Below, in pieces: positions 3,801 to 6,800 of a stretch of 64,000 bases of DNA (its first letter is position 1; each line of letters starts with the position of its first letter). This DNA comes from Escherichia coli O127:H6 str. E2348/69 (GTDB lineage: Bacteria; Pseudomonadota; Gammaproteobacteria; Enterobacterales; Enterobacteriaceae). Location: NCBI RefSeq assembly GCF_000026545.1, contig NC_011601.1; one strand, given 5' to 3'. Position numbers: made by a program.

Positions 3801-6800
3801 AACAGCAACAAGATCTGGTTAATGACGCGCTGAACGTCGAATAAATAAAGGATACACAATGAGTAGCGTAGATATTCTGGTCCCTGACCTGCCTGAATCC
3901 GTAGCCGATGCCACCGTCGCAACCTGGCATAAAAAACCCGGCGACGCAGTCGTACGTGATGAAGTGCTGGTAGAAATCGAAACTGACAAAGTGGTACTGG
4001 AAGTACCGGCATCAGCAGACGGCATTCTGGATGCGGTTCTGGAAGATGAAGGTACAACGGTAACGTCTCGTCAGATCCTTGGTCGCCTGCGTGAAGGCAA
4101 CAGCGCGGGTAAAGAAACCAGCGCGAAATCTGAAGAGAAAGCGTCCACTCCGGCGCAACGCCAGCAGGCGTCTCTGGAAGAGCAAAACAACGATGCGTTA
4201 AGCCCGGCGATCCGTCGCCTGCTGGCTGAACATAACCTCGACGCCAGCGCTATTAAAGGCACGGGTGTGGGTGGTCGTCTGACCCGTGAAGATGTGGAAA
4301 AACATCTGGCGAAAGCCCCGGCGAAAGAGTCTGCTCCGGCAGCGGCTGCTCCGGCGGCGCAACCGGCCCTGGCTGCACGTAGCGAAAAACGTGTGCCGAT
4401 GACTCGCCTGCGTAAGCGTGTGGCAGAGCGTCTGCTGGAAGCGAAAAACTCCACCGCCATGCTGACCACGTTCAACGAAGTCAACATGAAGCCGATTATG
4501 GATCTGCGTAAGCAGTACGGTGAAGCGTTTGAAAAACGCCACGGCATCCGTCTGGGCTTTATGTCCTTCTACGTGAAAGCGGTGGTTGAAGCCCTGAAAC
4601 GTTACCCGGAAGTGAATGCGTCTATCGACGGTGATGATGTGGTCTACCACAACTATTTCGACGTCAGTATGGCGGTTTCTACGCCGCGCGGCCTGGTGAC
4701 GCCGGTTCTGCGTGATGTCGATACCCTCGGCATGGCAGACATCGAGAAGAAAATCAAAGAGCTGGCTGTTAAAGGCCGTGACGGCAAGCTGACGGTTGAA
4801 GATCTGACCGGTGGTAACTTCACCATCACCAACGGTGGTGTGTTCGGTTCCCTGATGTCAACGCCTATCATCAACCCACCGCAGAGCGCAATTCTGGGTA
4901 TGCACGCTATCAAAGATCGTCCGATGGCAGTGAATGGTCAGGTTGAGATCCTGCCGATGATGTACCTGGCGCTGTCCTACGATCACCGTTTGATCGATGG
5001 TCGCGAATCCGTGGGCTTCCTGGTAACGATCAAAGAGTTGCTGGAAGATCCGACGCGTCTGCTGCTGGACGTTTAGTAGTTTAAGCTTCACCTGCACTGT
5101 AGACCGACGTGGATAGGGTGTCGGTCTACGGTTTAAAAGATAACGATTACTGAAGGATGGACAGAACACATGAACTTACATGAATATCAGGCAAAACAAC
5201 TTTTTGCCCGCTATGGCTTACCAGCACCGGTGGGTTATGCCTGTACTACTCCGCGCGAAGCAGAAGAAGCCGCTTCAAAAATCGGTGCCGGTCCGTGGGT
5301 AGTGAAATGTCAGGTTCACGCTGGTGGCCGCGGTAAAGCGGGCGGTGTGAAAGTTGTAAACAGCAAAGAAGACATCCGTGCTTTTGCAGAAAACTGGCTG
5401 GGCAAGCGTCTGGTAACGTATCAAACAGATGCCAATGGCCAACCGGTTAACCAGATTCTGGTTGAAGCAGCGACCGATATCGCTAAAGAGCTGTATCTCG
5501 GTGCCGTTGTTGACCGTAGTTCCCGTCGCGTGGTCTTTATGGCCTCCACCGAAGGCGGCGTGGAAATCGAAAAAGTGGCGGAAGAAACTCCGCACCTGAT
5601 CCACAAAGTTGCGCTTGATCCGCTGACTGGCCCGATGCCGTATCAGGGACGCGAACTGGCGTTTAAACTGGGTCTGGAAGGTAAACTGGTTCAGCAGTTC
5701 ACCAAAATCTTCATGGGCCTGGCGACCATTTTCCTGGAGCGCGACCTTGCGCTTATCGAAATCAACCCGCTGGTTATTACCAAACAGGGCGATCTGGTTT
5801 GCCTCGACGGCAAACTGGGTGCTGATGGCAACGCACTGTTCCGCCAGCCTGATCTGCGTGAAATGCGTGACCAGTCGCAGGAAGATCCGCGTGAAGCACA
5901 AGCTGCACAGTGGGAACTGAACTACGTTGCGCTGGACGGTAACATCGGTTGTATGGTTAACGGCGCAGGTCTGGCGATGGGTACGATGGACATCGTTAAA
6001 CTGCACGGCGGCGAACCGGCTAACTTCCTGGACGTTGGCGGCGGCGCAACCAAAGAACGTGTAACCGAAGCGTTCAAAATCATCCTCTCTGACGACAAAG
6101 TGAAAGCCGTTCTGGTTAACATCTTCGGCGGTATCGTTCGTTGCGACCTGATCGCTGACGGTATCATCGGCGCGGTAGCAGAAGTGGGTGTTAACGTACC
6201 GGTCGTGGTACGTCTGGAAGGTAACAACGCCGAACTTGGCGCGAAGAAACTGGCTGACAGCGGCCTGAATATTATTGCAGCAAAAGGTCTGACGGATGCA
6301 GCTCAGCAGGTTGTTGCCGCAGTGGAGGGGAAATAATGTCCATTTTAATTGATAAAAACACCAAGGTTATCTGCCAGGGCTTTACCGGTAGCCAGGGGAC
6401 TTTCCACTCAGAACAGGCCATTGCATACGGCACTAAAATGGTTGGCGGCGTAACCCCAGGTAAAGGCGGTACTACCCACCTCGGCCTGCCGGTGTTCAAC
6501 ACCGTGCGTGAAGCTGTTGCTGCTACTGGCGCTACCGCCTCTGTTATCTACGTACCAGCACCGTTCTGCAAAGACTCCATTCTGGAAGCTATCGATGCAG
6601 GCATCAAACTGATTATCACCATCACTGAAGGCATCCCGACGCTGGATATGCTGATTGTGAAAGTGAAACTGGATGAAGCAGGCGTTCGTATGATCGGCCC
6701 GAACTGCCCAGGCGTTATCACCCCGGGGGAATGCAAAATCGGTATCCAGCCGGGTCACATTCACAAACCAGGTAAAGTGGGTATCGTTTCCCGTTCCGGT

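What the first reader, a model, noticed from the sequence alone, without database searches (positions are those of the whole stretch)
5099..5129. Perfect 10-bp stem-loop in the sucB-sucC spacer
GTAGACCGAC-N11-GTCGGTCTAC lies inside an operon between two co-transcribed genes. It could act as a partial terminator, an RNase processing site or a stabiliser that sets the relative sucAB versus sucCD levels.
Basis: seen in the sequence. Interest (0 to 1): 0.25.

Follow-up and report, generated by a model that had tools for sequence, protein, structure and literature searches.

The report
Collapsed REP-cluster hairpin between sucB and sucC
The perfect hairpin between sucB and sucC is real; it is the outer closing helix of a repeat (REP/BIME) cluster that other E. 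coli strains carry at this exact spot, and it most likely marks and protects an RNA 3' end just after sucB, which is an ordinary, known kind of element.

Summary
In detail: GTAGACCGAC-N11-GTCGGTCTAC lies at 5099-5129 and extends as RNA to a 15-bp helix (5096-5132, -20.9 kcal/mol). The window is E. coli E2348/69.

The hairpin is not a free-standing invention. Every E. coli allele of this spacer shares its first 30 nt (ending GTAGACCG) and its last 49 nt (starting TCGGTCTAC). K-12 has 195 nt of REP/BIME repeats between them; this strain has 14 nt. The same arms form the helix that closes the whole K-12 BIME.

The short allele is single-copy and occurs in 3402 of 5426 complete genomes. Every variant type I identified in it falls in the loop.

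Published K-12 Term-seq places an RNA 3' end 5 nt after this shared helix (window position 5137). Hfq RIL-seq in E2348/69 itself links the RNA just downstream to Spot 42. There is no U-tract and no Rho signal.

Best reading: a REP-derived stem-loop that blocks 3'-to-5' exonucleases and lets sucAB RNA outlive sucCD RNA. Weak intrinsic termination is not excluded. No 3'-end data exist for this allele. It is a new member of a known kind, of low interest.

The parts
3859..5076 (+). sucB (odhB), 2-oxoglutarate dehydrogenase E2. Its stop codon TAG at 5074-5076 is followed by a second in-frame TAG.
   Evidence: ORF list; RefSeq annotation of the identical E2348/69 record; GFF of NC_011601.
5077..5106 (+). 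Left flank shared by all spacer alleles. It ends in CACTGTAGACCG, the head of the outermost degenerate REP in BIME alleles.
   Evidence: Prefix comparison of six alleles; sequences.
5096..5132 (+). Full RNA helix: 15 bp including G-U pairs, with a 7-nt loop. It is the same closing helix that encloses the whole BIME in K-12.
   Evidence: Folds.
5099..5108 (+). Left perfect arm, GTAGACCGAC.
5107..5120 (+). The 14 nt specific to the short allele (ACGTGGATAGGGTG). They replace 106-286 nt of REP/BIME sequence found in other strains. They contain GGATAGGG, one mismatch from the REP core GGATAAGG.
5109..5119 (+). The 11-nt loop. All five variant types identified among 3402 genomes lie here: G5109A, G5112A, G5116T, T5119G and a 4-nt deletion.
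5120..5129 (+). Right perfect arm, GTCGGTCTAC.
   Evidence: At most 13 of 3402 genomes carry a change other than T5119G in 5113-5141.
5121..5169 (+). Right flank shared by all spacer alleles (TCGGTCTACGG...GAACAC).
   Evidence: The exact 49-nt suffix is shared by all six alleles.
5137..5137 (+). Predicted RNA 3' end. It is the homologue of the K-12 Term-seq 3' end at 762981 (...GGUCUACGGUUUAAA), 5 nt after the helix.
   Evidence: Adams et al. 2021, supplementary file 1, sheet LB 0.4; helix and flank identity. Inferred for this allele, not measured.
5133..5149 (+). AU-rich, largely unpaired linker between the hairpin and the sucC ribosome-binding site.
   Evidence: Mean unpaired probability 0.51, against 0.06-0.07 for the arms.
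5114..5144 (+). Range in which the sucB.sucC.IGT halves of Hfq RIL-seq chimeras with Spot 42 (spf) begin, measured in E2348/69 itself (NC_011601 677114-677144).
   Evidence: Pearl Mizrahi et al. 2021, Tables S3 and S5. The offset (window = NC_011601 minus 672000) comes from the GFF compared.
5150..5164 (+). Predicted Spot 42 pairing site, covering the sucC Shine-Dalgarno region (CUGAAGGAUGGACAG).
   Evidence: Spot 42-sucC regulation is cited in PMC6393394.
5170..6336 (+). sucC, succinyl-CoA synthetase beta subunit.

Best explanation
The hairpin is the collapsed form of a REP/BIME locus. The GTAG-bearing heads of the two outermost, decayed REPs (GTAGACCG and CGGTCTAC) are joined over 14 nt. This makes a perfect stem that is identical to the helix closing the whole BIME in strains such as K-12. 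The element is transcribed as part of the sdhCDAB-sucABCD / sucABCD mRNA. In that RNA the stable, U-tract-less helix most likely stops 3'-to-5' exonucleases (PNPase, RNase II). Those enzymes would be degrading RNA that was cut or terminated further downstream, for example after Spot 42/Hfq-dependent silencing at the sucC ribosome-binding site 18 nt away. The result would be a sucAB-containing RNA ending a few nucleotides past the hairpin that outlives the sucCD part. That would let SucAB and SucCD levels be uncoupled. Shown: the anatomy, the allelic relationship, the conservation pattern, the 3' end in K-12, and the Spot 42 contact in E2348/69. Inferred: exonuclease blocking by this allele, and any effect on protein ratios.
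For: Identity of the element:
- All alleles share spacer nt 1-30 and the last 49 nt. The short allele is 30+14+49 nt, and K-12 is 30+195+49 nt with five REPs.
- The REP-pair covariance model naRNA4 hits the K-12, O2:H6 and Citrobacter youngae spacers.
- The K-12 spacer RNA folds, in both MFE and centroid structures, with ACUGUAGACCGGAUA / UAUUCGGUCUACGGU as the helix closing the BIME.
- E. albertii and C. youngae also carry REPs at this site, bounded by GTAG...CTAC.

Function:
- K-12 Term-seq 3' ends map at 762981 (5 nt after the shared helix) and at 762937 (9 nt after an inner z2 REP).
- No Rho-termination region is listed nearby.
- There is no U-tract.
- Dar and Sorek 2018 showed that U-less stem-loops define steady-state 3' ends and protect against PNPase and RNase II.
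- Of 29 Enterobacterales sucB-sucC spacers, 28 parsed as holding a stable hairpin, and the whole-spacer fold shows one in the 29th. The sequences are unrelated across genera. One spacer has a clear U-tract and one a partial one.
- Within 3402 short-allele genomes, all five variant types found are in the loop. One of them, G5109A (about 200 genomes), adds an 11th Watson-Crick pair.
- E2348/69 Hfq RIL-seq gives 20 and 19 chimeras of sucB.sucC.IGT with Spot 42, starting at window 5114-5144.
- The predicted pairing site is 5150-5164.
- SucD is repressed relative to SucB on glucose (PMC6393394).
- E2348/69 RNA-seq density falls to 0.71 and 0.58 from sucB to sucC. This is my arithmetic on DESeq2 baseMean divided by gene length.
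Against: - No 3'-end mapping or half-life data exist for the short allele itself. The Term-seq evidence comes from the BIME allele, appears in one of three conditions at that position, and has a modest read count (about 1570).
- A 3' end 5-8 nt after a hairpin also fits weak intrinsic termination at GGUUUAAA.
- The sucB-to-sucC drop in RNA density is no larger than the sucA-to-sucB rise in the same data, so it is not decisive.
- The RIL-seq Fisher p-value is only 0.038.
- Variation confined to the loop could reflect higher mutability of hairpin loops rather than selection on the stem.
- Only 3 of about 204 left-half variants were sequenced, so rare arm variants are not excluded.
- The direction of change (deletion of a BIME versus growth of a BIME inside an older hairpin) is inferred from a single Escherichia outgroup. 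The one intermediate I looked for does not exist in 5426 genomes.
Confidence: 0.55

Rival explanations
1. The hairpin is a weak (partial) Rho-independent terminator. RNA polymerase releases a fraction of transcripts at GGUUUAAA just after the hairpin, which lowers sucCD transcription relative to sucAB.
For: The stem is stable and GC-rich. The K-12 3' end lies 8 nt after CUAC and 5 nt after the extended helix, the usual distance for intrinsic termination. No Rho-dependent region is reported here. RNA density is lower in sucC than in sucB in E2348/69. In Rosenbergiella the equivalent hairpin has a true U-tract, with a partial one in Ca. Pantoea persica.
Against: Only three U residues follow the stem, and the consensus terminator scan finds nothing here. 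Twenty-seven of 29 Enterobacterales spacers lack a U-tract. In K-12 a second 3' end sits after an inner REP that also lacks a U-tract. That pattern fits exonuclease stops at successive hairpins better than termination.
Confidence: 0.2
2. The hairpin is a functionally neutral scar left when a BIME collapsed by recombination or replication slippage between its inverted outer REPs. It is tolerated because it does no harm.
For: BIME copy number at this locus varies freely (spacers of 93, 185, 261, 274 and 365 nt). Ton-Hoang et al. 2012 describe such variability as typical of BIME-2. Strains with and without the repeats are both common, at 63% and 35%. The hairpin is single-copy and matches no RNA family.
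Against: The arms are essentially invariant in 3402 genomes while the loop has at least five variant types. A common variant strengthens the stem. A stable hairpin is retained in this spacer in 29 of 29 genera sampled, despite complete sequence turnover. A 3' end forms next to the same helix in K-12.
Confidence: 0.18
3. The hairpin is itself an endonuclease processing site (RNase III in the stem, or RNase E guided by the stem) that splits sucAB from sucCD RNA.
For: [quoted passage not shown] GG|UUU just after the stem fits the RN|WUU RNase E motif (motif from my own knowledge). The linker is AU-rich and unpaired.
Against: A 15-bp helix with G-U pairs is shorter than typical RNase III substrates of about 20 bp or more (own knowledge). 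The passages retrieved from the genome-wide RNase III study mention a site only upstream of sucA, none in sucB-sucC. No 5'-end data were examined.
Confidence: 0.07

Closest known systems
REP / BIME-2 cluster in the sucB-sucC spacer of E. coli K-12 (y and z2 REPs)
   Same: It occupies the same chromosomal site and has identical flanks: 30 nt on the left and 49 nt on the right. It has the same GTAG/CTAC ends. The same outer helix closes the structure.
   Different: The window allele has no canonical REP. It has 14 nt in place of 195 nt and no naRNA4 hit (against positive controls). It is single-copy. Its stem is perfect and lacks the mismatch that TnpA-REP needs.
REP mRNA stabilisers (malE-malF and similar; Newbury et al. 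1987) and the U-less protective 3' stem-loops of Dar and Sorek 2018
   Same: It is an intercistronic or 3' GC-rich hairpin without a U-tract. A steady-state 3' end lies a few nt downstream in the homologous K-12 allele.
   Different: Exonuclease dependence and any stabilising effect are untested for this hairpin. It is not a member of the dispersed REP family by sequence.
The iscR-iscS intergenic structure that protects iscR RNA when RyhB silences iscSUA (Desnoyers et al. 2009; recalled from my own knowledge, not read here)
   Same: The layout is the same: upstream cistron, then a strong hairpin, then an sRNA site at the next cistron's ribosome-binding site. Here the sRNA is Spot 42 at sucC.
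   Different: Discoordinate decay of sucAB versus sucCD that depends on this hairpin has not been shown.
Rho-independent terminator
   Same: A stable GC-rich stem-loop; a 3' end 5-8 nt downstream in K-12.
   Different: No U-tract (GGUUUAAAAG), and it is not called by the consensus scan.

Membership tests
REP sequence (E. coli y/z1/z2) | Conserved GTAG tetranucleotide at the foot of the palindrome | tested here: met
   GTAG at 5099-5102 and its complement CTAC at 5126-5129. The definition is from PMC3333891.
REP sequence (E. coli y/z1/z2) | Sequence match to the roughly 35-40 nt y, z1 or z2 consensus | tested here: not met
   Local alignment to the five K-12 REPs of this locus finds only GTAGACCG(A), shared with the two outer decayed REPs. 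Against canonical y and z2, p = 0.37-0.80. The REP-pair model gives no hit even at E<=10, although it hits the K-12, O2:H6 and C. youngae spacers. The only hint is GGATAGGG, one mismatch from the core GGATAAGG.
REP sequence (E. coli y/z1/z2) | Dispersed and present in many copies per genome | tested here: not met
   The 41-mer has a median of 1 place per genome in 3402 genomes.
REP sequence (E. coli y/z1/z2) | Mismatch in the stem, required with GTAG for TnpA-REP (RAYT) binding and cleavage | tested here: not met
   The 10-bp stem is perfect. Perfect-palindrome REP mutants were refractory to binding and cleavage in vitro (PMC3333891).
BIME (BIME-2) | A REP and an inverted REP separated by a linker, often in tandem copies | tested here: not met
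   The window has only 14 nt between the outer heads. The K-12, 214-4, MDK6L1, O2:H6 and E. albertii alleles do meet this feature.
BIME (BIME-2) | Copy number varies between strains at a given locus | tested here: met
   Spacers of 93, 185, 261, 274 and 365 nt occur at this locus. Census: 3402 short, 1877 K-12-type, about 147 other.
Rho-independent terminator | GC-rich stem-loop followed directly by a U-rich tract of 7-8 nt | tested here: not met
   The stem is present. The tail is GGUUUAAAAG with 3 U, and there is no terminator call at this position.
Rho-independent terminator | Transcript 3' ends in the tract, produced by RNA polymerase alone | tested here: inconclusive
   A K-12 Term-seq 3' end lies 5 nt after the shared helix. 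Term-seq cannot separate termination from trimming, and no data exist for the short allele.
Exonuclease-protective 3' stem-loop (REP-stabiliser type) | Stable stem-loop without a U-tract, with a steady-state 3' end a few nt downstream | tested here: met
   Met for the homologous K-12 allele, which has the same helix and flank. The class is defined in PMC6061677. Not measured for this allele.
Exonuclease-protective 3' stem-loop (REP-stabiliser type) | The 3' end depends on PNPase or RNase II, and removing the stem shortens the upstream mRNA half-life | not testable with these tools
   This needs mutant strains and RNA decay measurements.
Translation-stalling REP (within 15 nt of a stop codon; Liang, Rudd and Deutscher 2015; criterion as cited in PMC12306157) | The hairpin begins no more than 15 nt after the stop codon | tested here: not met
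   The stop codon ends at 5076. The extended helix starts at 5096 (19 nt later) and the perfect stem at 5099 (22 nt later).

The most novel reading that the evidence does not exclude
The short hairpin may be a selected, transposase-immune 'minimal BIME' rather than a mere scar. On this reading, the spacer polymorphism is maintained or recurrent and sets different sucAB:sucCD RNA ratios in different E. coli lineages. The polymorphism comprises 63% hairpin-only, 35% K-12-type BIME and about 3% other alleles. The last group includes an allele 98% identical to E. albertii's that sits in E. coli flanks only about 90% identical to E. albertii.
Probability: 0.1. Interest if true: 0.45.

Novelty: new member of a known kind. 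Interest (0 to 1): 0.2.

Why it matters
The practical consequences are modest. K-12, the usual reference, carries a minority form of the sucB-sucC spacer. Most E. coli, including EPEC, UPEC CFT073 and O157:H7, have only this hairpin. Conclusions about suc operon RNA processing drawn in K-12 may therefore not transfer quantitatively. The locus is also a clean natural series of 0, 1, 2 and 3 BIME units within one closing helix. That series could be used to measure what REP copy number does to the stability and expression of flanking cistrons in a central-metabolism operon. Nothing here challenges current understanding.

Tried and rejected
- **Dispersed repeat.** Rejected: the hairpin is single-copy per genome.
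- **Known RNA family.** No Rfam hit at E<=10 in 5000-5250, and none at gathering thresholds.
- **Canonical intrinsic terminator or internal promoter.** The scan of 4500-5700 found no promoter-like site and no terminator at the hairpin.
- **Rho-dependent termination.** No Rho region is listed near K-12 762.7-763.2 kb in Adams et al. supplementary file 2. The apparent matches were digits inside p-values.
- **Translation-stalling REP.** The hairpin is 19-22 nt from the stop codon, beyond the 15-nt criterion.
- **Clean RAYT excision footprint.** This is unlikely. The allele breakpoints lie inside the outer REPs, not at their edges, and the perfect stem lacks the mismatch the enzyme needs.
- **Slippage between GTAGACCG and GTGACCG leaving only the last REP.** The predicted intermediate exists in 0 of 5426 genomes.
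- **A flank 'clamp' sequestering the sucC Shine-Dalgarno.** The MFE pairs CUUCA with UGAAG. This structure has only 5.7% ensemble frequency, and the upstream partner is not conserved in Citrobacter, so I dropped it.
- **Whole-length RNAduplex of Spot 42 against the spacer.** It gave a meaningless full-length duplex and was replaced by a windowed scan.
- **3'-end data for a short-allele strain.** No supplements are held for the EHEC Term-seq paper, for Dar and Sorek 2018, or for PMC9023263.
- **Older papers.** Cunningham and Guest 1998 and Bachellier et al. 1997 are not held.
- **First hairpin-scan script.** It timed out and was rewritten.
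Full report
**Observation.** The sequence at 5099-5129 reads GTAGACCGAC-GTGGATAGGGT-GTCGGTCTAC, exactly as reported.
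- The inverted repeat extends to 5096-5108 / 5120-5132 with one mismatch.
- As RNA it forms a 15-bp helix with a 7-nt loop. The 37-nt hairpin folds at -20.9 kcal/mol.
- As single-stranded DNA it folds at -11.9 kcal/mol, z = -4.2.
- It sits in the 93-nt spacer between sucB/odhB (3859-5076) and sucC (5170-6336), both on the + strand.
- Shuffles never reproduce the pattern.
- The window has 11 perfect hairpins of at least 10 bp, against 1.15 expected. A chance origin is therefore very unlikely.

**Source.** The region is 100% identical to E. coli E2348/69. Comparing gene coordinates with the NC_011601 GFF shows that window position = NC_011601 position minus 672000.

**What it is.** The decisive result came from other E. 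coli genomes. K-12 MG1655 has a 274-nt spacer here. Other strains have 185, 261 or 365 nt.
- All alleles share the first 30 nt of the spacer, ending CACTGTAGACCG. There is one C/T SNP in this stretch, and one engineered strain differs.
- All alleles share exactly the last 49 nt, starting TCGGTCTACGG.
- The window allele is 30+14+49 nt. K-12 is 30+195+49 nt.
- The K-12 insert consists of five REPs: a decayed outer one with its GTAG head at the left edge, then z2, y and z2, then a decayed outer one ending CTAC at the right edge.
- The Rfam REP-pair model naRNA4 hits the K-12, O2:H6 and Citrobacter youngae spacers, but not the window's hairpin even at E<=10.
- Folding the K-12 spacer RNA shows ACUGUAGACCGGAUA pairing with UAUUCGGUCUACGGU to close the entire BIME, in both the MFE and the centroid structures.

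**Is it a REP?** It is not, by the usual criteria.
- It has the GTAG/CTAC feet.
- It has no significant similarity to y or z2 REPs beyond GTAGACCG(A).
- It is single-copy per genome.
- Its stem is perfect. TnpA-REP needs a stem mismatch as well as GTAG (PMC3333891).
- A possible trace of REP ancestry is GGATAGGG in the loop, one mismatch from the REP core GGATAAGG.

**Population and outgroups.**
- The short allele occurs in 3402 of 5426 complete E. coli genomes. These include CFT073, O157:H7 and ST131 strains.
- The K-12-type left junction occurs in 1877 genomes.
- About 147 genomes have something else.
- E. albertii has a 261-nt BIME at the same site. C. youngae has an inverted REP pair bounded by CTGTAGGCC...GGCCTACAGG. 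Citrobacter sp. FP75 has a short GTAGGCC-TTATC-AGGCCTAC palindrome there.
- REPs at this site are therefore old, and collapse to a short GTAG...CTAC palindrome has happened more than once.
- I infer that the E. coli short allele is a derived collapse. This rests on one Escherichia outgroup.
- The simplest intermediate (last REP only) is absent from all 5426 genomes.

**Variation inside the short allele.** Of the 3402 genomes:
- 2559 carry the reference 41-mer;
- 560 carry T5119G;
- 67 carry G5112A;
- about 200 carry another left-half change, which was G5109A in 3 of 3 sampled, plus one G5116T;
- one carries a 4-nt loop deletion.

At most 13 genomes have any other change in 5113-5141. All five variant types lie in the 11-nt loop. 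G5109A turns a G-U pair into an A-U pair and lowers the energy to -24.9 kcal/mol. If the changes fell at random over the 31 nt, the chance of all five hitting the loop is about 0.006 (my arithmetic). Loops may simply mutate more, so this is only suggestive of selection on the stem.

**Other Enterobacterales.** In 29 sucB-sucC spacers from different genera, 28 parsed as having a stable hairpin. The 29th (Rahnella bruchi) has one in the whole-spacer fold. The sequences are unrelated between genera. Only Rosenbergiella, and partly Ca. Pantoea persica, have a U-tract after the hairpin. The hairpin as a feature is conserved; its sequence is not.

**Experimental evidence from the literature.**
- *Term-seq in K-12* (Adams et al. 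2021; PMC7815308). Supplementary file 1 lists a 3' end at 762981 (+) in LB at OD 0.4, with about 1570 reads. Its context is ...ATATTCGGTCTACGGTTTAAA|AG. This is 5 nt after the shared helix, in sequence identical to the window, so the homologous position is 5137. A second 3' end, at 762937 in another growth-condition sheet, lies 9 nt after an inner z2 REP. No Rho-termination region is listed nearby.
- *General principle.* Dar and Sorek 2018 showed that U-less stem-loops, some of them REPs, define steady-state 3' ends and protect against PNPase and RNase II.
- *RIL-seq in E2348/69 itself.* Hfq RIL-seq found 20 and 19 chimeras between sucB.sucC.IGT and Spot 42. The spacer halves start at window 5114-5144 (Fisher p = 0.038).
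- *Predicted pairing.* My windowed duplex scan places Spot 42 pairing on the sucC Shine-Dalgarno region at 5150-5164, at -17 kcal/mol.
- *Protein levels.* Miyakoshi et al. 2019 note that Spot 42 targets the 5' end of sucC, and that SucD is repressed relative to SucB on glucose.
- *RNA-seq in E2348/69.* DESeq2 baseMean per kb is 203 for sucB against 144 for sucC in one condition, and 334 against 194 in the other. The ratios are 0.71 and 0.58 (my arithmetic). The sucA-to-sucB difference is equally large, so this is weak evidence.

**Mechanism.** The layout is:
- the stop codon, ending at 5076;
- 19 nt of spacer;
- the hairpin, 5096-5132;
- an AU-rich open linker, 5133-5149;
- the Spot 42 site and Shine-Dalgarno region, 5150-5164;
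- the sucC ATG at 5170.

The best-supported reading is a REP-derived protective stem-loop. RNA cut or terminated downstream would be trimmed back to the hairpin, leaving a stabilised sucAB-containing RNA. This would allow discoordinate sucAB and sucCD expression. It resembles classic REP stabilisers and, from my own knowledge, the iscR-iscS case.

Weak intrinsic termination at GGUUUAAA remains a live rival. A neutral scar and direct endonuclease processing are less likely. The hairpin is too far from the stop codon (19-22 nt) for the translation-stalling REP mechanism, which needs 15 nt or less.

**Verdict.** The element is an ordinary kind of thing: an intercistronic protective hairpin of REP descent, in its most common but unannotated E. 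coli form. Interest is low. The main residual value is the natural allele series at this locus.

Noticed in passing
window 738-808 (both strands): A canonical REP pair in the sdhB-sucA spacer. It matches Rfam naRNA4 (RF02564) at 89 bits on the minus strand and 51 bits on the plus strand. So this strain keeps normal REPs one spacer upstream of the collapsed one.
   Followed up: partly
window 875-913: A perfect 12-bp AT-rich palindrome (CTTTAAAAACTG-N15-CAGTTTTTAAAG) in the sdhB-sucA spacer, upstream of sucA. RNase III sites and the suc promoter are reported in this spacer, but I did not check how they relate to the palindrome.
   Followed up: no
L002 (E. coli O2:H6 PG20180057) versus L011 (E. 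albertii), sucB-sucC spacer: This E. coli strain carries a 261-nt BIME allele 98.1% identical to E. albertii's. The adjacent first 100 nt of sucC are only 90% identical to E. albertii and 99% identical to other E. coli. This is either an old shared polymorphism or an exchange limited to the spacer.
   Followed up: partly
window 5089-5095 (TCACCTG) and the homologous positions in L007-L011, L013, L016, L017 and L022: The motif (A/T)(T)CACCTG directly 5' of the spacer hairpin is conserved across at least nine Enterobacteriaceae genera, although the hairpins themselves are unrelated. Its function is unknown.
   Followed up: no
window 5074-5079; L005 (strain B95.deltaA): sucB ends in a tandem stop, TAG TAG. 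In the engineered strain B95.deltaA the end reads GTGTAACGACCTAAG, apparently a deliberate recoding of the amber stop. This explains why that genome matched only the right half of the query.
   Followed up: partly
window 22423-23232: Eight tandem tRNA genes are called by Rfam (six at 79.2 bits and two at 65.9 bits). From memory, the homologous K-12 lysT-valT cluster has seven.
   Followed up: no
window 21359-21497: A strong match (153.7 bits) to the CpoB/ybgF intercistronic RNA thermometer family RF02782.
   Followed up: no
window 8544-8569, 10049-10079, 16550-16587, 22268-22301, 23394-23424, 28386-28412, 32450-32490, 41175-41200, 48802-48837: Nine further perfect hairpins with stems of 10-16 bp. 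Several look like bidirectional or ordinary terminators, for example GCAAAAAAGCGCC-CTAAA-GGCGCTTTTTTGC at 23394-23424. None was examined.
   Followed up: no
K-12 NC_000913.3 762937 (+), within L006: A second Term-seq 3' end in the K-12 spacer, 9 nt after an inner z2 REP. It is seen in a different growth-condition sheet from the 762981 end. This suggests the preferred stop among the BIME hairpins shifts with growth phase.
   Followed up: partly
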